25,738 nucleotides of DNA, taken from a virus. Lineage: Duplodnaviria > Heunggongvirae > Uroviricota > Caudoviricetes. Position 1 is the stretch's first letter. Every line of letters begins with the position of its first letter. The notes beneath the pieces were generated by a model. That model was not told the origin of the DNA. It did not search any database and was given only the letters and a program-made list of their open reading frames with translations. The position numbers were made by a program, and so were the translations under genes. The stretch lies in the IMG/VR virus record IMGVR_UViG_2795385890_000001. One strand, given 5' to 3'. Positions 6,056-21,827 of the stretch are shown here, in pieces.

Positions 6056-6083
6056 CCCGTACCAGCCGGTTGCCTCCGCATAT

Positions 6084-6099
6084 GTATAGCGCGGTATAC
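6084..6099. promoter_or_regulatory. Palindromic operator copy 1 (GTATAGCGCGGTATAC), overlapping a TATACT -10 of a probably leaderless gene
   Basis: One mismatch to the 16-bp palindrome at 10885-10900; TATACT at 6095-6100 lies 6 nt before ATG 6107. Confidence 0.7.
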
Positions 6100-6106
6100 T
6101 GCGCGC

Positions 6107-6328: not shown

Positions 6329-6335
6329 GCGAGCG

Positions 6336-6992: not shown

Positions 6993-7034
6993 CTTCTACT
7001 AGCGCAAAAGGTGCGGTGCACCCTGCTGGTTGTG

Positions 7035-7691
7035 TCAGCCCGTGACCACGTACCAGTCGTCCCCTATGGCCGTGCGCAGGAACGCCATGTGGACGTGGAC
7101 CTGGAATAAGTGGGTGGCCTCCACGATTGCAGCACCACCCATGAGCAGTCCTGGCGCGAACCCGTACACCTCATCAAACCGTAGCGCTCCGAGATGTTCG
7201 TAAACTCGATCAAACATGGGTTCTTCGTTGCGATCACGGAATTCGAAGCGATCCTTGTCGGACATGGTGATGAATGCTTCTAGCGAACGCTGGAGGCCAC
7301 TCGTGGATTGCTTTCGTGCGGGGGGCTTAACAAACAACACTCCGCGCGCTGGGTCTGTGACCAGCGATATGCCGTAGCCCGGTGTCCAGAACCACACCTT
7401 CCCGAAAGCGCTTCGGATGAACGGAATGTATTGTGCGTCCTCGCTTAGTTGCGGGTGCCGCACTCTGTCGAGGAGGATTTCCTCGGTGGTTGACTTCCAT
7501 TCGATGGGATCGACTAACCAGGCAGTTCCGTTGCCGAACCCGGAGAATCCGAACTCTTGCCAGTACGAGATAAGGCAGTCAGGGACAAGGCCGGTGTAGG
7601 CCCGTACGTGCTCCTCCGTGCATGCAGGGCCAGGGATGGAGAGGGGTAGCTCTTCGAGGAAGCACGCGAAGTACTCGTCCGGCACCTTCAC
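7035..7691 (-). CDS. GAD-like/DUF1851 (Tdi-type) immunity protein, cognate paralog 1
   Basis: Same motifs; start overlaps the toxin stop codon (GTGA). Confidence 0.9.
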   Translation of the reverse strand: MKVPDEYFACFLEELPLSIPGPACTEEHVRAYTGLVPDCLISYWQEFGFSGFGNGTAWLVDPIEWKSTTEEILLDRVRHPQLSEDAQYIPFIRSAFGKVWFWTPGYGISLVTDPARGVLFVKPPARKQSTSGLQRSLEAFITMSDKDRFEFRDRNEEPMFDRVYEHLGALRFDEVYGFAPGLLMGGAAIVEATHLFQVHVHMAFLRTAIGDDWYVVTG

Positions 7692-9874
7692 TCCCTACCG
7701 AGTCTGATGTTGACGATGGCATTCGGATCTTGGGTTTCCAGCCAATTCCGAAGCGCGTCCTTCTCCTGTTTGGTCAAGTTACCAAGCGCGTTGTTGACCT
7801 GCCAATCGCCATAGGTGAATGCCTGCCGGTATCCGCCGCCCGCGCCGTCCGGATTGTGGATCACTGGCTGGGGAATTAGGCCCGAACCGGATGGGAACTG
7901 TGTGTCTGCGTACTCGCGCGCAAGGCGTTTCGCCTCGGACGGGCTGTACCCCGCGTCCATCAAGTCTTCGGCACCATAATCCGCAAGGCCTCTTCGTAGC
8001 TCATCTCTAAGGTCTGTGGTGGGTAGCCGTGGCGCGTCCATGTTGTCGAGAACTTGCTGGACGCTTTGCGTGTTGTAGCCGTGCTCCCACATTTGGGTAT
8101 GGCGGTCGATCTCTGCGCCGTGATCGGCAGCAATTTTGTCGGTGTATGTCGGGTGGTGAATGTCGTATTGCGGGGTTCGTGGCAACTCGTCTACGGGTAC
8201 CCCGTGGTGGGCTGCGAGGTCGGCAAGGTTCTGTTCACCTCTGGCCCAATCGAGTTGGTCGCGTTCGAGGCGGTGTGCGGCGCGGGAGTCGTTGAGGATG
8301 TCGTCGGCTGAACGTGGGAGTCCGGCAGCGTGTTCGATGTTGGCGGGAATGCCATGGTCTCCGCCTGGGTGGTCCGCCGCAGGTGTCGGGTGGTCCACTG
8401 TTGGTGCGGGATGTGTTGTGCCGCTTGGCGGTTCGGTGGGTGCGTGTCCTGATGTATGGGGTTCAGCGGTGTGCGGGCTGGGCGCGTGCCCTGGCGCAGC
8501 GTCTTCGAGTCCGTGGGTGAGGGCGCGGCCTTCGGTGCCGAGTAGTGCGCCTTCGCCGCCGACGGGTGCTGTTGCGATGCCTGCGGCGATTTCTATGCCG
8601 TGTTTGCCGATGAAGGCTTTGGGGTTGTCGATGCCGGATTTGACCTCATCGATAGCGCCCTTAGCCTGGTCGATGCCGCGTTCCACCTGGTGGACGGGAT
8701 CGGGGTTGACTACATCCCACAGCCCTTTAGCGACGCCCTTCCATGCCTCTTTCGCGTGGTCGCCACCGTTGATACCCAGCAGGTCATCCTTGGCGCGGCC
8801 AGCTTGATCCCAAGACTCGGCGAATGCCCCGCCACCGGATTGCCGGACACGCTCAGGTGTACCGGGTTCGGGTGTTGCGACCATGGGCCGGTCCTGCTGG
8901 GCGCCCTTGATGGCCTCGGATAGCTTGGCCTCCACCTGATCAGGCGGATACTGCGTGGCCAGGATGCTGCGGAACTTGTCGATGGCCGCTTTGCCCTGCG
9001 GAGTGTTGGGGTCCAGCTTGGGCGCTGGCACCGTACGGGCATCCGGTGGCGATGGTGGTTTGTCCAACGGGCTCTTGGGCTCGGTAATACCCATTACGCC
9101 CAGTTTGTCGGTGAGGCCACCTGCGCGTGGATCGGGTTGGAAGGGCTTGTCGCCGGGTGAGGGCGGCCCAAGCACGGGCGCGTTCGGATCGACAGCGGTA
9201 GCGGCTGCTGCTTGTGTGCTGGCCGGGCTTGACTCCTTCGGGTACCACTGCTTGTAGAAGTTGGCATCCTGCGCGGTGTCAGGCTTCCGGGGTGCCGTGT
9301 CTTTGACGGCCTTGCCGATGTCGAAAGTGCCTGCCGCGCCGTTGACTTCGTTCTCAATGTCGCGGACCGCACCCTCGGCTAAACGCTTAACCTCTTGTTC
9401 GGCCTCCCACCACTTACGCGCCGACTCTCTAAGCTCCTCACCCCTGGCTTTGGCTACCTTGGCATTCTCGGCCGCCAGCTCCTCACTGATTCCCGGTGGC
9501 GGGTTGTAACCCACTTCCAGATCCTCCGAAAGGGTCAGACCCTTATCGCGTTGTCGCTCAATGTTTTCGATCATGTGCTGGCAGTTGGTCAACTCAGGCA
9601 CAATCGTGTGATCCACTGCCAGGCCAGCAGTCGTTTGAAACTTAGTATCTATGTCCTGAATCCGGGCCGTGACTTTCCAACCATCAGCGGCATTGCGTTG
9701 GCCTGCCTCGGCGGTCTGCCCCTCCCACGCCGTGCCACCGGGTTTATCGACATAACCCTTAAACGTCGAGATGTGCTGCTCATACTTGGTGGCCATCGCG
9801 TGCACAGCATCGAGCTGAGGCCGATATGAGTTCGCATCAATCCCGAGAATCACCGACTTCGTTGGCCCCGACAT
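7688..9874 (-). CDS. ESX-secreted polymorphic toxin: WXG100-like N-terminus, Pro-rich linker, Ntox15 (Tde-like) DNase C-terminus
   Basis: WEG at ~aa 50; C-terminal 'VIHNPDGAGGG...GDWQVNNALG...VNIRL' matches the Ntox15 HxxD signature (HNPD at 7847-7858); followed by Tdi-type immunity genes. Confidence 0.88.
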   Translation of the reverse strand: MSGPTKSVILGIDANSYRPQLDAVHAMATKYEQHISTFKGYVDKPGGTAWEGQTAEAGQRNAADGWKVTARIQDIDTKFQTTAGLAVDHTIVPELTNCQHMIENIERQRDKGLTLSEDLEVGYNPPPGISEELAAENAKVAKARGEELRESARKWWEAEQEVKRLAEGAVRDIENEVNGAAGTFDIGKAVKDTAPRKPDTAQDANFYKQWYPKESSPASTQAAAATAVDPNAPVLGPPSPGDKPFQPDPRAGGLTDKLGVMGITEPKSPLDKPPSPPDARTVPAPKLDPNTPQGKAAIDKFRSILATQYPPDQVEAKLSEAIKGAQQDRPMVATPEPGTPERVRQSGGGAFAESWDQAGRAKDDLLGINGGDHAKEAWKGVAKGLWDVVNPDPVHQVERGIDQAKGAIDEVKSGIDNPKAFIGKHGIEIAAGIATAPVGGEGALLGTEGRALTHGLEDAAPGHAPSPHTAEPHTSGHAPTEPPSGTTHPAPTVDHPTPAADHPGGDHGIPANIEHAAGLPRSADDILNDSRAAHRLERDQLDWARGEQNLADLAAHHGVPVDELPRTPQYDIHHPTYTDKIAADHGAEIDRHTQMWEHGYNTQSVQQVLDNMDAPRLPTTDLRDELRRGLADYGAEDLMDAGYSPSEAKRLAREYADTQFPSGSGLIPQPVIHNPDGAGGGYRQAFTYGDWQVNNALGNLTKQEKDALRNWLETQDPNAIVNIRLGRE

Positions 9875-9884
9875 CCCAGAACCC

Positions 9885-10202
9885 CTACGCGTGCGGGGTT
9901 GGATGCTGGGACATATTGCCGATCGAACGCATCACGGCCACCCCGTGCTCCTCGTTTTCGATCACGCCCGACAGGAACGCGCCCCGCACATCATTGAACG
10001 CACCCGTCCACCCCACCAAGGCATTCCCCACATTCGGCAGAGTCTCGGTAGCCAACCGTTGCAACGCCGCCAGCGCTGGGCTAGCACCGGGAGACGACGC
10101 ACCGCCTGCGTGTATGTCGCTACGCAACTCTCCCCGAAGGGTATCGATCTGTTTGCCCAACCTGTCGAGCGCATCCAGATCAGCCCGCAAAACGCCGCCC
10201 AT
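9885..10202 (-). CDS. WXG100-like / type VII secretion partner protein
   Basis: 105 aa helical; 'VLRADLDALDRLG' start and WTG motif; directly upstream of the toxin. Confidence 0.8.
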   Translation of the reverse strand: MGGVLRADLDALDRLGKQIDTLRGELRSDIHAGGASSPGASPALAALQRLATETLPNVGNALVGWTGAFNDVRGAFLSGVIENEEHGVAVMRSIGNMSQHPTPHA

Positions 10203-10366
10203 GCACCGCCCCTTGTGCTTTGGAAATCTAGAACCGGGCTACAGTTCGGCCCGGTCGGTCACTGTGAGCGTAGTAGCAGGAATTGGCTGCCGTCTAGCCA
10301 AACGACGATATTCGCGCAGTAAGCGGGGCATTGCAGTGCCGTCAAAGGCGGAAGGTAAGGGTTGCG

Positions 10367-10819
10367 CTAACAACCGGCGGCGGCGGCTAAATCCTGCTCC
10401 CGCGGTGTCCGGTTGGCGGGCGAGGTGGCGCATGCCCGGTCCACATCTCGGCCGCCCTGGTTGTTGTTCGACTGGGCCTGGTTAACCCGTTCCAGGCGAG
10501 TGGGGCACACGTAACGCATGCCCCGCCGGACAATAGCCATGGTGCCATCGGTGTCCGCGGCGACCATCGACTCGAACTCGTCGACGGTCTTGTCGCAGTC
10601 CTGCGCCGCCAGCTCGTAGAGGCGTGCCATGTCCGGTGAAGCCCCGGGGCTCGCGGCAAGTATCTCGGCCTTCCAGCCGCTCATGTCGACCGACGTCTGG
10701 GGCAGTATCGCCGGTTTTTGTGCCGCGGAAGTCGTCGGCGTCTTCTCCGCCGGTGCACCGCCGCACCCTGCCATCGCAGCCGCTGCCACCACGATGCATA
10801 GCCCCCACCTAATTCTCAT
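10367..10819 (-). CDS. Putative lipoprotein
   Basis: Signal peptide with lipobox 'AMAG-C', Pro/Thr-rich linker, paired Cys. Confidence 0.8.
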   Translation of the reverse strand: MRIRWGLCIVVAAAAMAGCGGAPAEKTPTTSAAQKPAILPQTSVDMSGWKAEILAASPGASPDMARLYELAAQDCDKTVDEFESMVAADTDGTMAIVRRGMRYVCPTRLERVNQAQSNNNQGGRDVDRACATSPANRTPREQDLAAAAGC

Positions 10820-10881
10820 GGCCGAACTCTAAACCGGGGTAGCCGCGAAAGGGGGACCGTTGACGACAAACCGCTCGACAC

Positions 10882-10903
10882 AACGTATAGCGCGCTATAC
10901 GTT
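10882..10903. promoter_or_regulatory. Palindromic operator copy 2 (perfect 22-bp AACGTATAGCGCGCTATACGTT) inside a SigA-like promoter
   Basis: Perfect inverted repeat; TCGACA (10875-80), 17 bp, TACGTT (10898-903). Confidence 0.8.
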
Positions 10904-10942
10904 CAAGTGGAATTTCCAGCGAACACCAGGGAAGGTCTCACC

Positions 10943-11260
10943 ATGTCAATTGCAAGCACTGCAATCACGCTGACCGCGGACGAGTTGGATGTGGTCAGCC
11001 GCTCCATGCTTGTCCACGAACCGCACCCGGACGTACGTCCGGCCTTCGACTGGGTAGGTCGGGGTCACCGGCCGCCGTGTCTCGCCTACCGCGGTGACCG
11101 GGTCGTCGAGTTCGGATACGAGGTCGCGGTGGTGGTGGCGGCCCGGCAGGGAGATGACGACGTCTACGCGATCCGCAGGGCCATCGAATCCCTCGGGCCT
11201 TGTCATCGCCAGGGCCGTATCCACTTCTGGCCAGGTGTGATTCCCGCGGTTGCCGCCTGA
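10943..11260 (+). CDS. Hypothetical protein (105 aa)
   Basis: ATG 10943 after GGGAAGG; downstream of the operator/promoter; followed by a terminator. Confidence 0.7.
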   Translation: MSIASTAITLTADELDVVSRSMLVHEPHPDVRPAFDWVGRGHRPPCLAYRGDRVVEFGYEVAVVVAARQGDDDVYAIRRAIESLGPCHRQGRIHFWPGVIPAVAA

Positions 11261-11277
11261 ATCTTCCTAGTTACTTC

Positions 11278-11314
11278 TCACCCCCGCCCCATGTGGGCGG
11301 GGGTGATTTCTTTT
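11278..11314 (+). terminator. Intrinsic terminator
   Basis: TCACCCCCGCCC-CATGT-GGGCGGGGGTGA 12-bp stem followed by TTTCTTTT. Confidence 0.85.
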
Positions 11315-11335
11315 CTTCATGCTCATGCTTGCCTA

Positions 11336-11357
11336 AACGTATAGTGCGCTATACATT
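11336..11357. promoter_or_regulatory. Palindromic operator copy 3 (AACGTATAGTGCGCTATACATT) inside a SigA-like promoter
   Basis: Core has one mismatch to copy 2; TTGCCT (11329-34), 17 bp, TACATT (11352-57). Confidence 0.78.
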
Positions 11358-11394
11358 CGAGCTATCGGTTAAGCAAACATCAACAGGAGGAACC

Positions 11395-12579
11395 ATGACC
11401 GCGCCAACACTCCCCGCAGTACCCGCCCGCACCCTGCGCAACGCCAACATCGGAAACCTCATAACGCTGCTGGAGCAGCAGCACCGGCAGAAGGTGGACA
11501 TCGTCATGCCCGTCTCTGACGTGCGGTTCACCGGCGGCGACCTGGTCATCTCGGACCAGGCGCCCGACATCAACGACGAAGGCGTCACCGACTTCAACGG
11601 GACCTACCGGATGACCGACCGCTCCGACAGCCAGCTCGGCGACGTCCTCGACATCCCCACCCGCTATGTCCGCAAGCTGCGCGCACAGCACCTGGAACTG
11701 ATGGACACCAACGTCAACGAACTGGCCCGGGTGCACGACCCCGCCAAGAAGGTCCTCGTCCGCATGCTGTCGGGCAGCGACCCCATGTACCCCGGCACCC
11801 ACGGCATCGTCCGCGCTGTGCTGTCCGACCGGTACGGCATCCGCGACAACCTCGACACCGTGCTCGCACTGCTCGATGGGATGCGCGCGGCCGGTCTCGG
11901 CGCCCAGCACATCCGCGGCGCAGACTTGTCCGACGAGAGGCTGTACCTGCGGGTGACCGCACCGGAGCTGGAGGTCGTTGCCCCCAAGCTGCTGGAGGGC
12001 TACCGCTCACCCTGGGCAGGCACAGCACACGGCGGCGAAGCCGCCAACACCCTGCCGGTCGTCTACGCCGGAATGCTGGTCACCAATAGCGAGACCGGCG
12101 GCGGCGCACTCACCATCACCCCAGAGCTGCGTATCAGGATCTGCGACAACGGCCTCACCATCAACGCCGACGCCATGCGCAAGATCCACCTCGGCAAGAA
12201 GCTGGACGACGGCAAGGTGAACTGGTCGGCCGACACCATCGACGCCGCCAACGACCTGATCAAGAAGCAGGTCCGCGACGCCGTCGCGTCCTTCATGAAC
12301 GTCGACTACGTGAAGACCGCTATCGAGAAGCTGGAGGAGACCAGCGGCACCCCGCTCACCGCCCCTGCCGACGTGATCGAGGTCGTGGCCAAGAAGCTGT
12401 CCTACAGCCAGGACGAACAGCGCGGCATCCTGGACCACTTCATCAAGGGCGGCCAGATGACCGCGGGCGGCGTCATGCAGGCCGTCACGTCGTACGCCCA
12501 GCTGATCGCTGACGTCGACCGCTCCAACGAATTCGCGGCCACCGGTGTGGACGCCATGCTCGTGGCCGCCGGTCGCTGA
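11395..12579 (+). CDS. DUF932-like family protein (394 aa)
   Basis: GGAGG RBS and ATG 11395; 'NSETGGGALTITPELRIRICDNGL' resembles the DUF932 NSxDG...RxxCxNGL motif. Confidence 0.75.
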   Translation: MTAPTLPAVPARTLRNANIGNLITLLEQQHRQKVDIVMPVSDVRFTGGDLVISDQAPDINDEGVTDFNGTYRMTDRSDSQLGDVLDIPTRYVRKLRAQHLELMDTNVNELARVHDPAKKVLVRMLSGSDPMYPGTHGIVRAVLSDRYGIRDNLDTVLALLDGMRAAGLGAQHIRGADLSDERLYLRVTAPELEVVAPKLLEGYRSPWAGTAHGGEAANTLPVVYAGMLVTNSETGGGALTITPELRIRICDNGLTINADAMRKIHLGKKLDDGKVNWSADTIDAANDLIKKQVRDAVASFMNVDYVKTAIEKLEETSGTPLTAPADVIEVVAKKLSYSQDEQRGILDHFIKGGQMTAGGVMQAVTSYAQLIADVDRSNEFAATGVDAMLVAAGR

Positions 12580-12587
12580 CTGCTGTA

Positions 12588-12650
12588 GGGGAAGGAGGGC
12601 CACCCGAGGGGAAGGAGGGCCACCCGAGGGGATGGGTGGCCCTCCTTCTA
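12588..12650. terminator. Terminator-like hairpin with a tandemly duplicated 20-bp left arm, between convergent genes
   Basis: GAAGGAGGGCCACCCGAGGG x2 (12591-12630), then the inverted GGGTGGCCCTCCTTC (12634-12648). Confidence 0.7.
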
Positions 12651-12944
12651 TTCAGGGTCGACGACCCGGAGTCTCGGCGGTTCCGCTGCATCCTCCGGTG
12701 CAGCGTCGAGCGCTTCCCTGACGCATTTCGCGATGTGCTCCGCTAACCCGTGGATAACGTCCTCGGTGACGTACGCCTTCGCCGCGCGCCGCTGAATCCG
12801 CATGCGCTCGGCAACGAAATCCACATGCGCGGAGACGTCCTCGCGGGCAGTGCTCTCGCTGATGGTCAGCCCGTATTGCTCGGCTAGCGTCTGGATGAGC
12901 AGGTTTGCTCGTGCGTTTAGCCACGGTGACTTGCGGGCAGGCAT
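12648..12944 (-). CDS. Hypothetical protein (98 aa, MPARKSPW...)
   Basis: Helical ORF just downstream of the integrase on the same strand; start chosen to avoid overlap with the integrase. Confidence 0.65.
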   Translation of the reverse strand: MPARKSPWLNARANLLIQTLAEQYGLTISESTAREDVSAHVDFVAERMRIQRRAAKAYVTEDVIHGLAEHIAKCVREALDAAPEDAAEPPRLRVVDPE

Positions 12945-12969
12945 GCGGCGTAACCCTACCGGCGCCTGC

Positions 12970-13974
12970 TTAACTTCCGGGGTATAACGGGGGCAATTGA
13001 TCAGATAGTAATGCCGTTGATGCAATAACAGCGACGGCAGCGGCGCCGCCTGCGACTGCGCTGCCAGCCCACCTTGCCGCCTTCGCTAGAGGGGGCGGTC
13101 CAGAGGAGGCAGCCATCATGGCTGCCCGCTTTTCGTCGTCATCCACAGCGGTGTATAGCTGCGTAGTAGCAACCGATGAGTGGCCTAACAACTCCTGCAC
13201 GGCGCGTATGTCCCGTGTGCCCCGGTATGCACGTGTAGCGAAACGGTGGCGCAGCTTGTGCATCGTCCACACACCCGGCATCGCCTTCGCACACAACTTG
13301 CCGACCCATCGCGGGGACAGGTGCCCGTTGTCGTCGCCAGGGAATAGATAACCGCCCGACCCTAGGCCCGGGGTGTGACCACCTGGCCCGGCCGCGACCA
13401 TGTCCGCGAGGTCATCGGAAATGGGTATGGTCCGCTCCTTGCCGCCCTTGCCATGTACGACCAGAAGGTATCCCCCGATGCCCTCCAGTAGGTCGTCTGT
13501 GTGCACGGCGGCGACTTCACCGCGTCGTAACCCGCCATCGCAGGCCAGGTACAGCATGACCATGGTGCGGGGGTCGGCCGCCAGAAGCGACTCTTTCCAC
13601 ACGCGATCTGGTGCCGGTTTAGGTGCCGGTGGCTCTGGCGAGACGGCCTCCAGCCCGGCGGCTGGGTTAGACAAAAGGTGTCCCTTGGCATGCGCCCAGC
13701 CGAAAAACCCCCGAGTTGTCGTCCGGTATCCGCGACGAGTTTCGCGTTGCCAGTGTTTTTGCTTAGCAAACCACTCGATGAGCGTTTCCTCGGTCACCTC
13801 ATAGGGCGCCGCATCCAGTCCGCGGGCTAATCGGTGAAGGTGCGACATGCGTGTCGCGATGGTCGTCCGCGGGCTACCGTCCGCCTCCAAAGCGGTGCGG
13901 TACTTCGCGATTATCCCCTGCCATTCTGGTGGCGCCGGTAGCGGCGCCGGTCCAGTCCCCCTTGTAGTTGTCAT
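12970..13974 (-). CDS. int: Prophage tyrosine integrase, XerC/D-like, lacking an N-terminal arm-binding domain
   Basis: R (GLRRGE), K (HGKGGKER), HKLRH, LGH and QLY catalytic motifs; start ~230 bp from the att core. Confidence 0.9.
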   Translation of the reverse strand: MTTTRGTGPAPLPAPPEWQGIIAKYRTALEADGSPRTTIATRMSHLHRLARGLDAAPYEVTEETLIEWFAKQKHWQRETRRGYRTTTRGFFGWAHAKGHLLSNPAAGLEAVSPEPPAPKPAPDRVWKESLLAADPRTMVMLYLACDGGLRRGEVAAVHTDDLLEGIGGYLLVVHGKGGKERTIPISDDLADMVAAGPGGHTPGLGSGGYLFPGDDNGHLSPRWVGKLCAKAMPGVWTMHKLRHRFATRAYRGTRDIRAVQELLGHSSVATTQLYTAVDDDEKRAAMMAASSGPPPLAKAARWAGSAVAGGAAAVAVIASTALLSDQLPPLYPGS

Positions 13975-14098
13975 TAGAGCGGAACCGTAAATCGAAGTCG
14001 GAAATTCACAGATATTTCCAAGGGGTTTGTTATCAAACTGCAAGATCCGATCATCTGACAGTCGAATTCAGCAAACATGCGTAACCAGACCCGTAGTG

Positions 14099-14239
14099 TC
14101 ATGCGGCATCGGCTTCGAGTTCTGCTGCGCGCCGCCTGCTGCGGTGCGCTACTAGGTCTGTAGGCTCGGTGTCGATGCAGGTCAACGGGTTTCGAACTAC
14201 TGACCAGAAGGTTAGGGGTTCGAATCCCTTCGGGCGCAC
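14099..14239 (-). pseudogene. Severed C-terminal tail of an integration-dependent phage repressor (VRPKGFEPLTFWSVVRNPLTCIDTEPTDLVAHRSRRRAAELEADAA*) ending in an ssrA-like tag
   Basis: 46-codon open frame running antisense through the att core to TGA at 14101-14099, ending ADAA; lies directly upstream of an arm-less integrase. Confidence 0.72.
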
Positions 14240-14241
14240 CA
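14205..14241 (+). repeat. att core copy 1 (prophage attR / satellite attL): 3' end of tRNA-Arg including CCA
   Basis: CAGAAGGTTAGGGGTTCGAATCCCTTCGGGCGCAC(CA): T-arm GGTTCGAATCC, acceptor strand and ACCA; 35 bp identical to 23839-23873; no 5' tRNA half upstream. Confidence 0.92.
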
Positions 14242-14308
14242 TCTATCAGTGCAAATACGCGTTACGGAGTGCGTGACACGCCCGGAATCTGATACTTTCC
14301 CTCCACTT

Positions 14309-15472
14309 TTAGCCGCCACTTTCAGCGAACTGCTCCAAAGCCGCTCGGACATCGGGGCCTCGGGTCTGGCGCTCTAAGTAATGCGCCTCGGTGGTGGCCA
14401 ACTTGGAATGGGAGAGCTGCTGCTGCGCCTTATCAGGGCCGTGAGCATCACGGACAACGGTGGCGACCGTGCGTCTGAACGAGTGCGGCGTGACCCAGCT
14501 CAGTTCATCCGGCAGAGCTGCACGCAGAGCCCGACGCATGTTGGCTAGGGACATCCAGCCGCCCTGACGATTGGCGAACACTGGGCCTTCCATACCGGAC
14601 TCTCCGACAAGCTCCGTGAGGGTCTCAACACCAAACTTGGGTAGAACAACGGTGTGCGGGGGAGCATGGTGCTTGCGGTGGTCCTGCCGGTGCAGTGGCT
14701 TACCCACGATGCGCCCGTGGTCGATCAACGTCCCGGTAATCGTCAGGGTAGGTGGGTCCGCCAACAGGTCAACATCAGACCACCTCGTAGCTAGTACTTC
14801 GCTGGGTCGGCAACCTGTCGCCACCAACACGTCAATGAATGCGGCGAGAAGTCGGCCAGGACGCGGCCCGGAACCTTTCCGAGTCGAGTACGCCTGGACG
14901 GCAGCCCGGATCTGCCGGAACTCAGCTGCTGTAGCCGCGCGAGCTGGCTTACGCGTCGTTTTGACCGGCTTCGCCTCGCGGATCGGGTTCACCGGTAGGA
15001 CATCGAATCTAACGGCCATCGAGAACATTCCCGACAGCACCGTGCGCAGCCGCTTGGCCTGAGTCGTTGCCCCCATCCCCTGTAGATAGTTGTGCGCCGA
15101 TTGGGTGCGTAACTCCGTGACCCTTAGGGAGCCCAACTGGGCGGCGCCATGGGTTTTCCATACCGCCCGATACTGGTCTACCGTCTGCTGTAGAACGCCG
15201 TCCTCGGCTGCCTTTGCTTCGATCCACAGATCGAACAAGTCAGTGAGGGCGGTTTTTTCTGTCACCAGTTGCCCGGAGAGCGGCGCGCGTCGGGCGTTCA
15301 AGTGCCGCTGGAGCGCGCGCCGCGCATCCTCGGCAGATTTCTCGCTGGACCGCTCTACTCGTCGCCGCTTGCCATCAGAGTCACGCACGTAGGTAGAAGC
15401 GAAAAACATTCGACCACTTACCCGTTCGGTGATCTTGCCGTGCTCCCCCGGAGCGAGCCGCTGCCTAGGCAT
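14309..15472 (-). CDS. int: Satellite tyrosine integrase with an N-terminal arm-binding region
   Basis: GCRPSE, HSFRR, LSH and HY motifs; basic N-terminal beta domain 'YVRDSDGKRRRVERS'; adjacent to the att core. Confidence 0.93.
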   Translation of the reverse strand: MPRQRLAPGEHGKITERVSGRMFFASTYVRDSDGKRRRVERSSEKSAEDARRALQRHLNARRAPLSGQLVTEKTALTDLFDLWIEAKAAEDGVLQQTVDQYRAVWKTHGAAQLGSLRVTELRTQSAHNYLQGMGATTQAKRLRTVLSGMFSMAVRFDVLPVNPIREAKPVKTTRKPARAATAAEFRQIRAAVQAYSTRKGSGPRPGRLLAAFIDVLVATGCRPSEVLATRWSDVDLLADPPTLTITGTLIDHGRIVGKPLHRQDHRKHHAPPHTVVLPKFGVETLTELVGESGMEGPVFANRQGGWMSLANMRRALRAALPDELSWVTPHSFRRTVATVVRDAHGPDKAQQQLSHSKLATTEAHYLERQTRGPDVRAALEQFAESGG

Positions 15473-16040
15473 CCTCGTTACCCTCGATTTGTTGCCACAA
15501 TTCGCGAATCATTCTGTCGTACATTTCGATTTGATCGCGGTCACGGTCAAGTTCGGCTCGCGCCGTCACGCGGGCGCGGGCATCTTCCAATTCCGCCAGG
15601 CGTCGCCATTGGCGAAGCTGATCTGTGCGCCAAGCAAATCCGAAATCGCCGTCGAACGCACTCGCTAGCTCTTGCGACCACCCGTTTGCCGAAAACCACT
15701 GCGCTGCATCGAATTCCGGAACTTCTCGTTCAGGTAGAAATTCCACCGAATCGGAATACGGGCCGGGGTACATCAGCGTTACTGGGGACGTATCGAGTGC
15801 GGCAGCGAGTATTACTAGCTCAGCGGTCGTGACATACCTACGTCGCCCATTCTCCAAATCGGAAATCACCGAACGGGATACTTCGTGGCCGAGTTCCTTG
15901 GTCCGAGCCGCAAGCCACTGCGCTGACCTCTTTCCGCGAAGCCGGTAAACCTCGCGCGCCAATCTATGCGCTTCACGTTCCGCCCAGCTGTCGGGCGGCC
16001 GTTCCGTCCAACTCGGCCTTTTCGGCCCTGATTGCGTCAT
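15465..16040 (-). CDS. XRE-family HTH repressor of the satellite
   Basis: 'SAQWLAARTKELGHEVSRSVISDLENGRRRYVTTAELVILAAALD' XRE HTH; overlaps the int start by 8 bp; divergent from xis. Confidence 0.87.
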   Translation of the reverse strand: MTQSGPKRPSWTERPPDSWAEREAHRLAREVYRLRGKRSAQWLAARTKELGHEVSRSVISDLENGRRRYVTTAELVILAAALDTSPVTLMYPGPYSDSVEFLPEREVPEFDAAQWFSANGWSQELASAFDGDFGFAWRTDQLRQWRRLAELEDARARVTARAELDRDRDQIEMYDRMIRELWQQIEGNEDA

Positions 16041-16167
16041 GACACGCAGGATATGCACTGCTTGCGTTCATTGCCATCCGCCTGGTATCTATTGAGTCGC
16101 AGAAACGCAACTTATCGGATGTCTGCGTGTTTGAACGCACAAGCAGCCATGAACGGAGGAGGACGCA

Positions 16168-16335
16168 ATGCACGACCACAAGGCAGTGGGGGCAAAGCTC
16201 GGAGGTATCAGCAGAACGCTGGTGTTCCAGCTCTGGCACTCTGGTGCCCTCGCCAGCGTGAGGATTGGTAAGCGCCGATTCAGCACTGACAGGCAGATCA
16301 ACGAGTACATCGCCAAGCTTGAAGGCGCGGCGTGA
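16168..16335 (+). CDS. Excisionase/AlpA-like HTH_17 protein (55 aa)
   Basis: GGAGGAGG RBS; MHDHKAVGAKLGGISRTLVFQLWHSGALASVRIGKRRFSTDRQINEYIAKLEGAA; absent from the ORF track. Confidence 0.82.
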   Translation: MHDHKAVGAKLGGISRTLVFQLWHSGALASVRIGKRRFSTDRQINEYIAKLEGAA

Positions 16336-16625
16336 GTATCGAGGCGTACAGGATCGCGGCGCGGCTAGCGCAAGAGCCGTGGGTTCCCTTGTCGCCATGC
16401 ATTATTCGGGATGGCAAGGTGGTTCCGAATTCCACGGCCAGCGTGGAGGCCGAGGGCGATGTGATCACGGTGACCGTGACCGACGCTGACGGGGCCAAGC
16501 GCGAATATCGCGCACAAGTTCAGCTCGTCGGCACAAGTTCGGCTATGCCAACGGCCCCCGTAGTCCCCGACGCGGCAACGTCGGGCGGGAGCCGCTGCAA
16601 CCAACCATCAACAGAAAGTAGGTAA
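16332..16625 (+). CDS. Hypothetical protein (97 aa)
   Basis: GTGA overlap with xis; operon context. Confidence 0.6.
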   Translation: MSIEAYRIAARLAQEPWVPLSPCIIRDGKVVPNSTASVEAEGDVITVTVTDADGAKREYRAQVQLVGTSSAMPTAPVVPDAATSGGSRCNQPSTESR

Positions 16626-16630
16626 ATCTC

Positions 16631-17128
16631 ATGGTACAGATCGAATTTGGCGACGACACCCGGACATGGCGTGACTTGGTTGATCGACTACCGGCTGACT
16701 GGGTAGCGCAGTTGGAGCGCGCCGAGGAGTTGGCGGCGGCTGGGGTCACGCCATGGCGGGCCACGAGTCAGGCCGACAACGCAGCGTTGAGTCTCCTTTT
16801 CAAGATCACCCTCGATATCGAGACGCATCAAGCTGGTATCCGGTTCGCGCATGTGCCGATCCCAGCTCAAGCCTCACATGCTGACCAGTGGATGAACATG
16901 GGCTCTAAGGAATCGCCGGACTGGGGGCGCAGGCTAGAGGGCGCCCGGTTCGAGGTGGGCGAGGGCTTGGGGCATGTGCTCATAGAGGGCACCCAGCAGG
17001 CCGCAGATGGTTCGGTTGAGTGGGGCGTGCGTTGGGTCAATGGTGTCGAGGACTGGATGGAAGCGAGCGCGGCGCGACGCCTGACTGATGCGCTGCGCGC
17101 CGCCGCTGAGGTCGTGGAGTCCTTGTGA
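16631..17128 (+). CDS. Hypothetical protein (165 aa)
   Basis: Operon context; C-terminal 'AARRLTDALRAAAEVVESL' helix common in actinophage small proteins. Confidence 0.7.
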   Translation: MVQIEFGDDTRTWRDLVDRLPADWVAQLERAEELAAAGVTPWRATSQADNAALSLLFKITLDIETHQAGIRFAHVPIPAQASHADQWMNMGSKESPDWGRRLEGARFEVGEGLGHVLIEGTQQAADGSVEWGVRWVNGVEDWMEASAARRLTDALRAAAEVVESL

Positions 17129-17164
17129 TCGGAACAGATTGCACTCATCACGCGGTGGAGCGCG

Positions 17165-17383
17165 ATGCCTCTGCGTGAGTGCGCACGGGCACCATTGGGC
17201 GGCGGGCTTGTTGGTCGGCTGCCCGATGGGCCTGGGGGAGTGCACGAGTTGTGCGTCACGGTGCGTGATGGTGTGCGCCCTGTTGTGCGCTGCGACGTGC
17301 ATCGCGCGGCCCAGTTGCACGCCAGCGTGCGCGCTAGCCGAAGCCGTGCATTGCCTGCTGACGCACAGGGCGGCTTACCGTGA
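17165..17383 (+). CDS. Possible hypothetical protein (72 aa)
   Basis: Fills the gap and has a GTGA overlap with rep; an alternative frame (17088..17402) cannot be excluded. Confidence 0.35.
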   Translation: MPLRECARAPLGGGLVGRLPDGPGGVHELCVTVRDGVRPVVRCDVHRAAQLHASVRASRSRALPADAQGGLP

Positions 17384-18174
17384 CGCCAGAGCAGCGCCGT
17401 GACTGGCGCGATTATGTTCTCGGGGCCAAGGCCCTGACGTTGGCCCAGCGGATAGTTCTCCTGGCGCTTGAGACGTTCGCCGACTACGCGGACGGCACCA
17501 ACGCGCGGCCTGGAATAGAAGGGCTCATGCGGAAATGCGGGCTCACCGAACGGGCTGTGGAAACGGCGCTCAAGCGAGGCCGCGAGCTGGGGCTCATCCA
17601 GCGCACAGCAAACGGATTCAAGCGTCATGCCGCCGTGTATCGGCTGGTTCCGATCGCAAATACCCCGCATGGCGGTGCGGGTCAAAACGGTGATACCCCG
17701 CATGGCCGTGCGGGTCAAAATAGCCAAAGCCCGCACAGCGGTGCGGGTCAACGGTCCGATAGCCCGTACGGCGGTGCCTCTTTGACCCGCACGGCGGTGC
17801 CCCCCACCACATCAGGACCACATCAAAAGAGGGGGTTGCGTTATGGGGGTACGGAACTTGACGACCCGGACGCCTACGCGATCACCCCCGCCAGCCGAGG
17901 GCGGCAATCAGCTAACGGCAATGAGACGGGGACGCGTTGCGCCAAGCACGCGCACATCGCACCTGATGCCTGGGTGGGTGAGAGCTGCCGCGACTGCGCA
18001 GCGCTGCGCAAGGCTGCCACGGCGTCGGAGGCCGAACGCAAACGCGCAGCCGTGCAGGTGATTCGGGACTGCCCGGATTGCGACGACTTGGGCCGGATCG
18101 AAGTCGATGACGGACTCAAGCCCTGCCCGCGTCACGTCAGCTGGGCGCAAGCCCAGGGAGGGAGAACCGCCTGA
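17380..18174 (+). CDS. Phage-type replication initiator: N-terminal winged-HTH, internal iterons, C-terminal Cys-rich domain
   Basis: 'ARPGIEGLMRKCGLTERAVETALKRGRELGLI' wHTH; 33-bp repeats inside the gene, as in lambda O-type initiators. Confidence 0.8.
   Translation: MTPEQRRDWRDYVLGAKALTLAQRIVLLALETFADYADGTNARPGIEGLMRKCGLTERAVETALKRGRELGLIQRTANGFKRHAAVYRLVPIANTPHGGAGQNGDTPHGRAGQNSQSPHSGAGQRSDSPYGGASLTRTAVPPTTSGPHQKRGLRYGGTELDDPDAYAITPASRGRQSANGNETGTRCAKHAHIAPDAWVGESCRDCAALRKAATASEAERKRAAVQVIRDCPDCDDLGRIEVDDGLKPCPRHVSWAQAQGGRTA
17664..17804. repeat. Iteron array (putative replication origin)
   Basis: CCCGCA-N6-TGCGGG-TCAA at 17664, 17697 and 17730 (33-bp period), a degenerate copy at 17763, and inverted TTGACCCGCAC at 17782-17792. 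Confidence 0.8.
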
Positions 18175-18380
18175 TGTCCTGCCGCTACTGCGCACACTGC
18201 CGCAAGACACGCGAGCGCGCCAACACCCGCCGCGAAGCGATCCGGCAGATACGCAACTGCCCACACTGTGACGACTACGGGCGCCTGGACAACCTCACCG
18301 ACTGCCCACGACACGGCAATTGGGCTGCCGCACAAGCACTCAACGAAACAGATGCTCAGGACCAGGAGGGGGCGCGGTGA
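18174..18380 (+). CDS. Small Cys-rich protein homologous to the initiator C-terminus
   Basis: CRYC...IRNCPHCDDYGRL...CPRH..WAAAQ versus initiator CRDC...IRDCPDCDDLGRI...CPRH..WAQAQ. Confidence 0.75.
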   Translation: MSCRYCAHCRKTRERANTRREAIRQIRNCPHCDDYGRLDNLTDCPRHGNWAAAQALNETDAQDQEGAR

Positions 18381-18700
18381 ACTGGGACACGCTGCTGGCC
18401 GAACTAGCCACGCCTGTACTGCCTGGGGCGCGCTGCCGGGGACGGCACGAGTTGTTCGACGCCGCTATCGGCGATGGCCGAGGCGCCCTGGACGAGCGCG
18501 ACTACGCCCGCCAGGCAGCGACGCGGATATGCCGCCAATGCCCTGCGCTGGCCTCGTGCCGGGAGTGGTTCGATTCCCTGCCGCACGAGCAGCGGCCGCT
18601 CGGGGTTACCGCCGCCGTGGTGGTCAACTCGTACCCGCCGCGAAAGAAGCAGGAAATCACCACCAAAGACGGCCAGGACGAGGCGACGGGGGCGGCATGA
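18377..18700 (+). CDS. WhiB-like Fe-S transcription regulator
   Basis: Four Cys in WhiB spacing (ARC...ICRQCPALASC); 'GVTAA' in place of GVWGG; GGAGG RBS. Confidence 0.8.
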   Translation: MNWDTLLAELATPVLPGARCRGRHELFDAAIGDGRGALDERDYARQAATRICRQCPALASCREWFDSLPHEQRPLGVTAAVVVNSYPPRKKQEITTKDGQDEATGAA

Positions 18701-19059
18701 GCACGACAGCGCAGCCTTGCACCCAATGCGCCACGGGAGAGCACCGCGTGGTCAGCGTGCGGGATCTTCGCACCGCCGCATGGGTGCTCGGGGAGGAACT
18801 AGCGCGCCGTCGCCGCCAAGGCACCCCGATCCCACCGGCCTTGCATCGAACATGGGAAGCGTTGCAGCGCAGTGTGTCCGATAGCGGACAGGTTTCTGGA
18901 CACCCCGAAACGGCGGGAGCAGAATTGGAGACAGTGCAACAAAGGGCTGAGCGCCTTGGAGTTTCGCCCCGCACCATCCGCCGCCACGCACTCAAATCCG
19001 GGCAACGCAAAGTCGGCGGGCGCTGGATCTTCGACGAAAGGCAAGAACCACATGGATAA
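18697..19059 (+). CDS. Protein with N-terminal CxxC and C-terminal HTH (120 aa)
   Basis: ATGA overlap; 'AERLGVSPRTIRRHA...KVGGRWIF' HTH_17/MerR-like motif. Confidence 0.75.
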   Translation: MSTTAQPCTQCATGEHRVVSVRDLRTAAWVLGEELARRRRQGTPIPPALHRTWEALQRSVSDSGQVSGHPETAGAELETVQQRAERLGVSPRTIRRHALKSGQRKVGGRWIFDERQEPHG

Positions 19060-19351
19060 ACCCGACTGGAAGCAGGTGCTACAGCAGCTCAACAGTGACA
19101 CCGAAGCCCCTGCCACCGATCTGCTACGGCGACTGCGTGGCGACGAGACCGCAACGGACAGTGCCGATTCCGAGGACCTTAAGCGTCTTTACGAACGCCT
19201 CGGCACTCCTCCCGCACCGCAGCCTGAATCGTCCAACTACGTACCGGGCGAGGGCAACAATCACCGGCCCCGGAAACACCCGCGTCAAGTCGAAATCAAC
19301 TTCCTGCGCGAAGCCCTAACCGGCGAAATCGCTTTCAACGAAAACTACTAG
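19052..19351 (+). CDS. Hypothetical acidic, low-complexity protein (99 aa)
   Basis: ATG 19052 overlapping the upstream gene; C-terminal part of the 18872..19351 ORF. Confidence 0.7.
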   Translation: MDKPDWKQVLQQLNSDTEAPATDLLRRLRGDETATDSADSEDLKRLYERLGTPPAPQPESSNYVPGEGNNHRPRKHPRQVEINFLREALTGEIAFNENY

Positions 19352-19362
19352 GAGACAAACAC

Positions 19363-20109
19363 ATGTCCGTCTACACCGCCACAACCCGTTCCTACCTCGT
19401 CCAGGTGCAACGCGCCGCCGAACGCCTTGAAATTCCGCTGCCCGATCCATTCGTAGAGGCTGTGGCCTCGGCCCGAGCGTTGGTCGAGAAGGCGCAGATC
19501 GGTGCTGGCAGCGCGGACGCCCTCAGGTACTCCGTGCTCAGCTGCATGAAGAAGGACCAGGATTACCACGCTGACCCTGTGGTAACCGGCCACCTTCTTG
19601 ACCACATGCTTGCGCAGCTCGGCCTAGACCGCGCCGCCAAGGACGAGGAGGGGCGCACGATCGGTGAGGCGCTCAACGCTCACGCCGACACCATATTGGC
19701 CCAGTGGTCTAAATCCCTTGAACCATACGCTAATTCGCTTGAAGCTGCCGCTGAAGTGATCCCGACCGATGACCTCAACGACGGGCCGACGATCACCAAG
19801 GCCGGACCGAAAGCCGTCATCGCATGGTCCGAAGCCCTCGTGGCGCGCGAACGATTCGGCTACGCCGTCGAAGGACTCGGCGCGCTGCTGCAATCTGCCG
19901 GGATCGGTGGCGACCGCGCCCACACGTTGATCCCTAACGGCGATGCCTCCGCTGCACGCATCGTCGCCGCCCGCGCCAAGAACAAGTCTGATCTGCGCGA
20001 CGCCTGGCACGTGGCCCGCTGCGGATTTCGGCCAGTGCTGCCCACCGTCAGCGGCTACGTCGAGCGCCTCGGACAAGCCGCACTCCACGACGACCCCCCG
20101 GGGGAGTGA
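19363..20109 (+). CDS. Hypothetical alpha-helical protein (248 aa)
   Basis: GGAG RBS; last gene of the rightward operon. Confidence 0.8.
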   Translation: MSVYTATTRSYLVQVQRAAERLEIPLPDPFVEAVASARALVEKAQIGAGSADALRYSVLSCMKKDQDYHADPVVTGHLLDHMLAQLGLDRAAKDEEGRTIGEALNAHADTILAQWSKSLEPYANSLEAAAEVIPTDDLNDGPTITKAGPKAVIAWSEALVARERFGYAVEGLGALLQSAGIGGDRAHTLIPNGDASAARIVAARAKNKSDLRDAWHVARCGFRPVLPTVSGYVERLGQAALHDDPPGE

Positions 20110-20331
20110 ACCCGAGGGGTCCGGCGCCCGCCCCTCATGGCTTAGGCAAACGCCCCCCCTGCCCCAATTTGTTTTCAACACCCAACCGTCACTGAAATCC
20201 CGTTTTTTATTCGCCACCAACACGATCCACGGAAGGTGAAACCGGCTGCTGGTGCGATGTGGCCCTCTCCCGGCGGCCTCAGCGGCTCTTGGCGCTCACG
20301 CGTCCCAAGTTCGGGACCACGTGAAAGCTAG

Positions 20332-20901
20332 CTAGTCCTCTTTTACTGCAGGCTTCTTTAGATCGCCAGGCTCGTGGACCCATGTCCTGTACAGCTTGTG
20401 GACGCCACCGCTGGCGGCTAGCCGCTCTTTCCAGTCCTCGCAGGCAGGTGTCGCGCCTAGTGCGATACAGCCCTCTATTACGTCTTCCAGCACCACCCGG
20501 GGACCGGGGAGATGCGCATCCCGGTTGATTGCAGGGTGGATGTGGGGGCGCCGCTCGTCGCTGTTCCCTACCGGGTGCCAGTGCCATTCGATGACATGAC
20601 TCTCATTAGCAATTTCGAGTCGGTAGATATATTCGCGCGTCGAAACCCGAAAGGGCTCCTTTTCAGGAGCATCGTGCAGATCCGCTGTCGTAGGAACTAA
20701 CTCAAACCGCTGGGTGGCGTAGAACTTACCGAATCCTCGGAGCACCATTCCGTTGCCCCCGTTGAGGATCCATGCTCCGAATTCGCCGTACCTCTTGGGC
20801 GTTTGTGAAAGTTGGATCTTGGCGCACCCTAAACATGAAACCGCCTGTTGAAGCGGATCTATGTAATTACGGATCGCGTCGTGAGGGGTGCGACCAGGCA
20901 C
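20332..20901 (-). CDS. His-motif protein (WHWHP...PHIH...HLP), candidate toxin or defence effector
   Basis: 189 aa with non-shadow amino acid composition; second gene of a two-gene leftward operon. Confidence 0.75.
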   Translation of the reverse strand: MPGRTPHDAIRNYIDPLQQAVSCLGCAKIQLSQTPKRYGEFGAWILNGGNGMVLRGFGKFYATQRFELVPTTADLHDAPEKEPFRVSTREYIYRLEIANESHVIEWHWHPVGNSDERRPHIHPAINRDAHLPGPRVVLEDVIEGCIALGATPACEDWKERLAASGGVHKLYRTWVHEPGDLKKPAVKED

Positions 20902-20918
20902 TTTGGCAAACGTGTCTC

Positions 20919-21128
20919 TCAGATGCCTGCGAAAGGCAGCGCCGTCGCGACCGACGTCAGCCCTGGAACGTCGTCCCAGTTGATCCCTTCAAATTCCCCT
21001 GCGTTCCAACGTCGCACAAACTCCGCCCCTGTGATGCCCATGTTGTTCTGAGCGATGCTGTCGAACAACTCGGCACCTTCATCTGAGGTCAACTCCACTA
21101 CTTCACACGCAGTCTCTGTGACGGTCAC
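20919..21128 (-). CDS. Small acidic protein, candidate antitoxin
   Basis: 69 aa; GAAAGGAG RBS; 'ELFD...MGITGAEFVRRWNAGEF'; 17 bp upstream of the His-motif gene. Confidence 0.75.
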   Translation of the reverse strand: MTVTETACEVVELTSDEGAELFDSIAQNNMGITGAEFVRRWNAGEFEGINWDDVPGLTSVATALPFAGI

Positions 21129-21516
21129 GGCGGAACTCCTTTCTCAGATCCTCGATTGCACCATCGTATCTGCGTCCACTATGACGGCTATGACCGACAC
21201 CCACCAACCGATTGATCATTATCGCAGGTCAAATGATGCCCGGTTCTTGAGAGAGGCCCCCAGAGCGGCCTTATGGGAAGCCTCCAGCAGCCGGCGCTTG
21301 CAAGCCGCCGCCTAAACGTTCGTCCTCCCGCACGGCGGCATTCTCCTACCTTTTTGGTTCTGGGCCATCAGCGCACGCAGGTTCTGAGCGGTGCCACCCG
21401 CGCCGCCTTGGCAGTAACGGCACGGGTGACCTGTCTCATCGCGCCACTATGGGCGCAGTGTTAGGCTCGCTGGCAAACAGGGTGATGGCCGTCACCAAGT
21501 CGGGCGGGAGGCCGAT

Positions 21517-21825: not shown

Positions 21826-21827
21826 TT

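What the first reader, a model, noticed from the sequence alone, without database searches (positions are those of the whole stretch)
14099..14239. Hidden genetic switch: repressor tail with an ssrA-like tag stranded at attR, controlled by one base
Seen: antisense through the att core reads VRPKGFEPLTF-W-SVVRNPLTCIDTEPTDLVAHRSRRRAAELEADAA-stop. The Trp codon depends on C at 14204. The other core copy has T at the equivalent base (23838), which makes that codon TGA. Established: in BPs/Brujita-type integration-dependent immunity, attP lies inside the repressor gene; integration removes a C-terminal ssrA-like tag and yields stable repressor. Inference: the repressor body sits at attL (outside the window) and stops at the tRNA-derived TGA in the lysogen; after excision it regains this ADAA degron. 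The ORF track misses this fragment.
Basis: partly seen in the sequence, partly recalled or inferred. Interest (0 to 1): 0.8.

Follow-up and report, generated by a model that had tools for sequence, protein, structure and literature searches.

The report
Prophage repressor tail left at attR

Summary
Observation confirmed. Window 14099-14242 (-) is a 47-codon frame that runs through a 35-bp tRNA-Arg-derived att core (14205-14239). The core is repeated exactly at 23839-23873. Base 14204 is C (antisense TGG) and base 23838 is T (antisense TGA).

Interpretation supported. Window 1-14242 is the right end of a cluster MabK M. abscessus prophage; the integrase protein and the tail are identical to those of prophiGD43A-5. 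Five M. abscessus assemblies and one IMG/VR contig carry the matching attL. There a 102-aa HTH repressor ends ...VRPKGFEPLTF-TGA inside the antisense of tRNA-Arg(ACG), and the A of the stop comes from tRNA base T39.

Contigs of runs that hold the window's DNA completely carry the same repressor body (synonymous differences only). It lies at the far end of a 78,226-nt prophage contig. Joining attL body to the window's tail gives a 137-aa viral form ending -ADAA.

Integrase and repressor are 61% and 58% identical to BPs gp32 and gp33, with the core at the same tRNA-Arg position and in the same frame.

This exact system (MabK, attB-1, stop made by the first bacterial base, -AA tag) is described in Dedrick et al. 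2021 and annotated in GenBank MW584167. One correction: 23838 lies in the attR of a neighbouring 9.6-kb island, not in the tRNA. Degron activity is inferred, not tested.

The parts
14099..14242 (-). 3' remnant of the prophage immunity repressor gene at attR. It codes 12 core-encoded residues (M-VRPKGFEPLTF), then Trp, then a 34-residue tail ending -ADAA, then the stop at 14099-14101.
   Evidence: The sequence is identical in GD43A CP065279 (L014), in MW584167 (L001 and L017, the same record), and in L015 and L016. MW584167 annotates it as an immunity repressor misc_feature.
14204..14204 (.). The phage-derived C just outside the common core. It makes the antisense codon TGG (Trp). At attL the tRNA's T39 occupies this position and gives TGA.
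   Evidence: The equivalent codon is TGT in BPs and Cracklewink.
14205..14239 (+). 35-bp common core, equal to linear positions 40-74 of tRNA-Arg(ACG). Identity between this prophage's attL and attR extends 3 bases further, to 14242 (CAT). The site is both the prophage attR and the island's attL.
12970..13974 (-). Tyrosine integrase of the prophage, 334 aa (an upstream TTG at 14043 would give 357 aa). It lies downstream of the repressor tail on the same strand and ends -LYPGS, with no -AA tag.
   Evidence: Pfam PF00589, E=2.7e-22. The exact protein is found in MW584167 and CP065279. It is 61% identical to BPs gp32.
1..14204 (.). Right end of a cluster MabK-type prophage. It carries lysin A, lysin B, holin, a WXG/polymorphic toxin with two Tdi-like immunity genes, a small TetR-like gene, the integrase and the repressor tail.
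   Evidence: 93% identity over 93% of the query to prophiGD43A-5.
14240..23838 (.). Resident integrative island of about 9.6 kb that uses the same tRNA-Arg core. It carries int2 (14309-15472, -), an XRE regulator, a replication initiator, a WhiB-like gene and a WXG/NlpC-P60 cassette. It forms the right flank of the prophage attR.
   Evidence: In L008 and L010-L013 it sits directly at tRNA-Arg with no prophage.
23839..23873 (+). Second copy of the 35-bp core. It is the attR of the island, preceded by T at 23838.

Best explanation
Window 14099-14242 (-) is the 3' remnant of the immunity repressor gene of an integrated cluster MabK Mycobacterium abscessus prophage (prophiGD43A-5 type). It was left at attR when the phage integrated into the 3' end of tRNA-Arg(ACG). 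In the free phage genome, attP lies inside the repressor gene. Repressor and integrase read in the same direction, and the full product is about 137 aa (134 from the second Met), ending -ADAA. Integration splits the gene within the 35-bp core. At attL the HTH body (102 or 99 aa) now meets tRNA base T39, which turns the phage's TGG (Trp) into TGA. The lysogen therefore makes a truncated repressor without the tail. By analogy with BPs/Brujita-type integration-dependent immunity, the tailed viral form is unstable or inactive (C-terminal -AA, ssrA-like, Clp-type proteolysis), and the truncated form is stable and confers immunity. Excision would rejoin body and tail. Shown here: the anatomy, reading frames, tRNA identity, the stop codon at attL, orthology to BPs Int and Rep, and enrichment of -AA ends across the family. 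Inferred: proteolysis of the tailed form and its consequence for lysogeny.
For: The tail ORF and core repeat are in the sequence. The prophage is identified by a 99.3% match over int plus tail and 93% over 93% of window 1-14242 to prophiGD43A-5. GenBank annotates split immunity repressor misc_features at both ends of MW584167. At attL in L003-L007 and L029, repressor P0002 (102 aa; Pfam HTH_3, HTH_31, HTH_19) ends ...LTF-TGA within antisense tRNA-Arg(acg). GD43A CP065279 holds both attL (L004) and attR (L014), and its tail is identical to the window's. Reconstruction gives an uninterrupted 137-aa frame. In runs X1, X4 and X5, which hold 98-100% of the window's sampled words, the repressor body is present with only synonymous differences. 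In X1 it lies on the same 78,226-nt contig whose other end is the tail. BPs gp32 is 61% and gp33 58% identical, and the BPs 35-bp core lies at the same tRNA-Arg position with 2 mismatches and a TGT codon in place of TGG. Of 88 family homologues, 37 end -AA against about 1.1 expected from composition. A diverged tail in L009 remains open and ends -TAAA. Literature: MabK/attB-1 uses integration-dependent immunity, the stop is formed by the first bacterial base, and the repressor has -AA while the MabK integrase does not (PMC8092301). The mechanism is summarised for BPs in PMC9262239.
Against: The window does not contain attL and no whole genome is held. The link of body to tRNA in the window's own strain is therefore deduced, not read. 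Contigs break inside the 35-38-bp core. No experiment on MabK tail stability exists in what I could read. BPs itself uses a tail without -AA, so -AA is not necessary for the mechanism, and ADAA differs from the canonical ...YALAA end. The integrase lacks the -AA tag that the founding systems carry. The relative prophiT37-1 has its tail 1 nt out of frame, so the tail can be lost in some lineages.
Confidence: 0.87

Rival explanations
1. The tail is the repressor's 3' remnant, but it inactivates the viral form by something other than ssrA-like Clp recognition of -AA. Candidates are another protease signal within the 35 residues, or interference with dimerisation or DNA binding.
For: The BPs gp33 tail ends -DKAS yet BPs uses the same switch (PMC8092301 notes that BPs and several Mab clusters lack ssrA-like tags). 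Only 37 of 88 homologues end -AA. The proximal tail (SVVRNPLTCIDTEPTDL) is more conserved than the distal end among MabK variants.
Against: Terminal -AA is strongly enriched in the family. It is kept in two divergent MabK tails, -ADAA and -TAAA. The authors of the MabK description class the -AA ends as ssrA-like.
Confidence: 0.08
2. The prophage is a fixed, defective remnant, so the tail is a fossil with no present role. The switch can no longer operate in this strain.
For: Only 14 kb of the roughly 78-kb prophage is visible in the window. No induction data exist. The relative prophiT37-1 shows that tails can decay through a 1-nt frame shift.
Against: The integrase, lysin A, lysin B and holin frames are intact. 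The tail and integrase are identical across several fetched assemblies: 18 contigs carry the exact integrase, and the identical tail is seen in L014-L017. The repressor body in the likely source runs is intact.
Confidence: 0.04
3. The ORF is a chance antisense reading of a tRNA fragment plus flanking DNA and has no relation to any gene.
For: A 35-codon open stretch at about 60% G+C is not rare. The ORF's ATG is created by the CAT that follows the core, and no ribosome-binding site or promoter is predicted upstream.
Against: The frame is continuous with the repressor body at attL of relatives. Homologous repressors of sequenced virions (BPs gp33, Cracklewink gp50) read through the same core in the same frame. 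The GenBank annotation agrees.
Confidence: 0.01

Closest known systems
prophiGD43A-5 (MW584167), cluster MabK, attB-1, integration-dependent immunity (Dedrick et al. 2021, mBio, PMC8092301)
   Same: The integrase protein (334 aa), the repressor tail and the 35-bp core are identical. The attB is the same tRNA-Arg(ACG). The stop is made by the first bacterial base. The repressor ends -AA and the integrase has no tag. A 387-aa-integrase island also lies to the right of attR in GD43A.
   Different: The rest of the prophage is mosaic: 93% identity over 93% of the visible 14 kb. The window has a 728-aa toxin with two Tdi-like immunity genes. The island flank differs in sequence just after the core.
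Mycobacteriophage BPs gp33 repressor and gp32 integrase (cluster G), the founding integration-dependent immunity system (Broussard et al. 2013, as summarised in PMC9262239)
   Same: The order rep then int on one strand is shared. The 35-bp core lies at the same positions of tRNA-Arg and is read in the same frame (...RP-K/E-GFEP-L/P-TF). TGA is created by the base next to the core. Int is 61% and Rep 58% identical.
   Different: BPs has a Cys codon (TGT) where this phage has Trp (TGG). The BPs tail ends -DKAS, not -AA. BPs int overlaps rep by 4 nt and is 398 aa. Here there is a gap of 55-124 nt and the integrase is 334 aa, not ending in -AA. The core differs at 2 bases, matching the host tRNAs.
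Mycobacteriophage Cracklewink gp50 immunity repressor (Bippervirus), a sequenced virion genome with intact attP
   Same: It is 70% identical to the MabK repressor body. It reads through the same tRNA-Arg-like core, continues for 30 residues and ends -DCDAA. A tyrosine integrase lies immediately downstream.
   Different: The codon after the core is Cys. The tail sequence is unrelated. The host is M. smegmatis.
Tandem prophages prophiT36-2a/b at one tRNA att site (PMC9934374)
   Same: Two integrative elements share one tRNA core, so one junction is attR of one element and attL of the other. A repressor remnant with -AA is stranded at such a junction.
   Different: Here the second element is a 9.6-kb island whose regulator gene does not contain the core. 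Only one of the two elements uses integration-dependent immunity.

Membership tests
Integration-dependent immunity system (BPs/Brujita type) | The attP common core lies inside the repressor open reading frame. | tested here: met
   Joining attL (L004) to attR (window) gives one 137-aa frame through the 35-bp core. The same holds in the virion genomes of BPs and Cracklewink.
Integration-dependent immunity system (BPs/Brujita type) | [quoted passage not shown] | tested here: met
   TGA directly follows ...LTF in L003-L007 and L029, and its A is the complement of tRNA-Arg T39. The window's own attL was not readable. In the likely source runs the body and the tRNA flank are both present, but the contigs break in the core.
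Integration-dependent immunity system (BPs/Brujita type) | A tyrosine integrase is encoded downstream of the repressor on the same strand (rep-int operon). | tested here: met
   The tail stop is at 14099. int starts at 13974 (or 14043) on the same strand, and no terminator is predicted between them. Co-transcription itself was not tested.
Integration-dependent immunity system (BPs/Brujita type) | [quoted passage not shown] | tested here: met
   ARAGORN calls an intact tRNA-Arg(acg) at attL in six loci. The core equals tRNA positions 40-74.
Integration-dependent immunity system (BPs/Brujita type) | The viral-form repressor carries a C-terminal degradation signal (typically ssrA-like -AA) that makes it unstable or inactive. 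| tested here: inconclusive
   The sequence ends -ADAA. -AA ends are enriched in the family, 37 of 88 against about 1.1 expected. Instability cannot be tested with these tools.
Integration-dependent immunity system (BPs/Brujita type) | [quoted passage not shown] | tested here: not met
   The integrase ends -LYPGS. The same exception is reported for MabK. This is a frequent feature of the family rather than a universal one.
Integration-dependent immunity system (BPs/Brujita type) | The repressor is an HTH DNA-binding protein transcribed divergently from a cro-like or early lytic gene. | tested here: met
   P0002 carries HTH_3, HTH_31 and HTH_19. A divergent 77-aa HTH_17 gene lies beside it, annotated as excise in MW584167. 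This lies outside the window.
Cluster MabK prophages of M. abscessus | Nucleotide similarity across the genome to prophiGD43A-5 and prophiT37-1, and use of attB-1. | tested here: met
   The visible 14 kb matches prophiGD43A-5 at 93% identity over 93% of the query, and prophiT37-1 at 92% over 66%. A 78,226-nt contig carries the whole prophage in run X1. Only the right end was compared.

The most novel reading that the evidence does not exclude
The tandem arrangement may couple the two elements. The island's XRE-int2 operon (16058 to 14309, minus strand) points straight into the stranded repressor tail and the prophage integrase, with no predicted terminator. Island transcription could therefore supply prophage Int in the lysogen and influence excision. 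Separately, recombination of the prophage attL with the island's distal core (T at 23838) would give a phage-plus-island circle whose repressor still stops at TGA and so stays tag-less. Neither idea has any direct support here.
Probability: 0.07. Interest if true: 0.45.

Novelty: already known. Interest (0 to 1): 0.14.

Why it matters
The finding shows that raw-sequence reading can recover an integration-dependent immunity switch from one prophage end alone. The biology itself is established. The mechanism was worked out for BPs, Brujita and Charlie. Cluster MabK at tRNA-Arg (attB-1) was explicitly described, with the same stop-codon juxtaposition and -AA tag. The practical value is for annotation: the 47-codon ORF should be labelled as a repressor 3' remnant rather than a gene. 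Anyone cloning this repressor as an immunity marker must use the truncated 102-aa form, as PMC8092301 already advises.

Tried and rejected

Broussard et al. 2013 could not be opened by PMC id or PubMed id. Its content is cited only through PMC9262239 and PMC8092301.

Read laying used Logan contigs only, and these break inside the 35-38-bp core. They therefore cannot show which left flank joins which right flank, nor reveal attP or attB junctions from spontaneous excision.

The literature search for the mycobacterial ssrA tag sequence returned papers that quote the E. coli-type AANDENYALAA. I did not retrieve the M. abscessus tmRNA tag, so "ssrA-like" rests on the terminal -AA only.

Pfam gives no hit for the 47-aa ORF itself, as expected for a fragment. 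The promoter and terminator scan of 13700-14600 found nothing on the minus strand. This is a consensus scan and is weak evidence.

I considered that 23785-23873 might be a degenerate whole tRNA. I rejected this because ARAGORN finds none and the left flank is island DNA in all strains.

Full report
**1. What is in the sequence**

On the minus strand, window 14099-14242 is a 47-codon frame, M-VRPKGFEPLTF-W-SVV...ELEADAA-stop. Its first 12 codons are the antisense of a tRNA 3' fragment.

The 35 nt at 14205-14239 recur exactly at 23839-23873. The base before the two copies is C at 14204 and T at 23838. In the repressor frame this gives TGG and TGA respectively.

ARAGORN finds no complete tRNA in the window.

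**2. What lies around it**

Left of the core the window encodes:
- lysin A (Amidase_2), lysin B (cutinase-like) and a phage holin;
- a large toxin gene followed by two GAD-like/Tdi1 immunity genes;
- a tyrosine integrase at 12970-13974 (-), immediately downstream of the tail on the same strand.

BLAST against phage records identifies this as the right end of a cluster MabK Mycobacterium abscessus prophage. The int-tail stretch is 99.3% identical to prophiGD43A-5 (MW584167). The whole of window 1-14242 matches at 93% identity over 93% coverage. An exact-sequence look-up finds the 334-aa integrase in MW584167 and in the GD43A chromosome CP065279.

Right of the core (14240-23838) lies a different element with a second integrase (14309-15472, -). 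It also carries an XRE regulator, a replication-initiator homologue, a WhiB-like gene and a WXG/NlpC-P60 cassette.

That island's integrase is indexed in 490 blocks of the collection. In five of the six places shown (L008, L010-L013) the island sits directly against an intact tRNA-Arg with no prophage.

The site at 14205-14239 is therefore both the prophage's attR and the island's attL. The copy at 23839-23873 is the island's attR. The prophage-free state, tRNA joined directly to the island, exists in other strains.

**3.

The window does not reach attL and no genome is held, so I used three proxies.

(a) MW584167 already carries two misc_features named immunity repressor, one at each end of the record. 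[quoted passage not shown]

(b) The left-end frame of that record (99 codons from the second Met) retrieved an identical 102-aa M. abscessus protein, P0002. Five assemblies encoding it were fetched. In all five the gene ends ...CCT ATG GTG CGC CCG AAG GGA TTC GAA CCC CTA ACC TTC TGA. ARAGORN calls tRNA-Arg(acg) on the opposite strand overlapping its last 38 nt. The A of TGA is the complement of T at linear position 39 of the tRNA. The core is positions 40-74. An IMG/VR contig shows the same arrangement. GD43A CP065279 holds both attL (L004) and attR (L014), about 76.5 kb apart, and its tail is identical to the window's.

(c) Runs X1-X6 hold 98-100% of the sampled words of window 6000-14400 and may include the source of the window. 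I laid X1, X4, X5 and the partial holder X7 (73% of words) on attL.
- In all four the repressor body is present. X1, X4 and X5 differ from the IMG/VR copy inside the coding part at two positions, both synonymous; X7 shows one further change that I did not assess.
- In X1 the body sits at one end of a 78,226-nt contig whose other end is the tail.
- A separate contig runs from the core into tRNA-Arg, tRNA-Ser and the chromosome with no differences.
- A 9,655-nt contig is the island, with the core at both ends.
- The contigs break in the 35-38-bp core, so the joining is deduced. The window shows tail joined to island and island joined to chromosome, which leaves tRNA joined to body.

**4. Reconstruction**

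Joining the attL body to the window's tail gives one uninterrupted frame of 137 aa, or 134 aa from the second Met. The prophage form is 102 aa (or 99 aa). Thirty-five residues are removed by integration.

**5. Relation to the founding system**

BPs gene 33 (136 aa) reads ...VRPEGFEPPTF-C-LGAT...DKAS. The BPs attP core lies at the same 35 positions of tRNA-Arg, with two base differences. BPs gp32 is 61% identical to the window's integrase and gp33 is 58% identical to P0002.

The review PMC9262239 describes the BPs case. [quoted passage not shown] The viral form carries a proteolytic tag that integration removes.

The window's system is thus an orthologue with Trp (TGG) in place of Cys (TGT). 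Cracklewink gp50, from a virion genome, is 70% identical to the body, also reads through the core and ends -DCDAA.

**6. The tag**

The tail ends -ADAA. Among 88 homologues (clusters at 90% identity), 37 end -AA where about 1.1 would be expected from alanine content. Relatedness inflates this figure, but the bias is large.

A MabK variant (L009) has a diverged distal tail that is still open and ends -TAAA. The integrase ends -LYPGS, without a tag.

This matches what Dedrick et al. 2021 report:
- MabK uses attB-1.
[quoted passage not shown] - The repressor has -AA and the MabK integrase has not (PMC8092301).

Whether ADAA is recognised by Clp proteases was not tested, here or in anything I could read. 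BPs shows that the switch can work with a non-AA tail.

**7. Verdict**

The thing is real, and its mechanism is well supported by orthology. However, the system is already published and annotated for this very prophage cluster, so it rates as already known and of low interest.

The only loose thread with some novelty is possible cross-talk in the tandem array. The island's int2 operon reads toward the stranded tail and the prophage integrase with no predicted terminator. The distal core keeps the T that would preserve the stop. I found no evidence for either having a role.

Noticed in passing
window 14240-23873: An integrative island of about 9.6 kb uses the same tRNA-Arg core. It carries int2 (387 aa), an XRE regulator, a small Xis-like ORF, a replication-initiator homologue with 33-bp internal repeats (17664-17777), a WhiB-like gene and a WXG/NlpC-P60 (424 aa) plus 193-aa cassette. 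Its integrase is indexed in 490 blocks of the collection, and in five of the six places shown the island abuts tRNA-Arg directly.
   Followed up: partly
window 13974-16058, minus strand: The island's XRE-int2 operon is co-directional with the stranded repressor tail and the prophage integrase. Only 66 bp separate the int2 stop from the tail's ATG, and no terminator-like site is found. Read-through into the prophage int is conceivable but untested.
   Followed up: partly
L025 (OQ417969.1, right end) and L027 (left end): In prophiT37-1 (MabK) the tail is homologous (…GVRNPLTCIDTEPTDL…HTAAA) but lies 1 nt out of frame with the repressor body. The reconstructed viral form would end ...TFC-stop, without the tag. 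This is either a natural tag-less variant or a draft-assembly error. The two annotated misc_features sum to a multiple of 3 only if the core is counted twice.
   Followed up: partly
L009 11234-11380 (GCA_012845855.1): A MabK variant has a proximal tail identical to the window's. Its distal 18 codons are replaced (…DLAERRSRRRAPLPDTAAA), yet the tail still ends in -AA.
   Followed up: yes
L015 and L016 (attR flanks in other assemblies): The same prophage attR is followed by different DNA in other strains: in L015 a 412-aa integrase element, in L016 yet another flank. tRNA-Arg(ACG) thus looks like a hotspot that collects tandem elements.
   Followed up: no
run X1, contigs laid on L029: The 78,226-nt prophage contig has about twice the mean word depth of the flanking chromosomal and island contigs in X1 (98.6 against about 50), and about 1.4 times in X4. 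The tool warns that contig depth is not copy number, so this is at most a weak hint of spontaneous induction.
   Followed up: no
window 6336-9874: The 728-aa toxin gene (7688-9874, -) has no Pfam hit at E<=0.01. It is followed by two paralogous GAD-like/Tdi1 immunity genes (7035-7691 and 6336-6992; 702-bp repeat spacing, 74-78% nucleotide identity). prophiGD43A-5 and L009 have a related toxin, and L009 shows a single immunity gene.
   Followed up: partly
window 12587-12626: A perfect 20-bp tandem duplication lies in the gap between the 394-aa hypothetical gene and the TetR-like gene.
   Followed up: no
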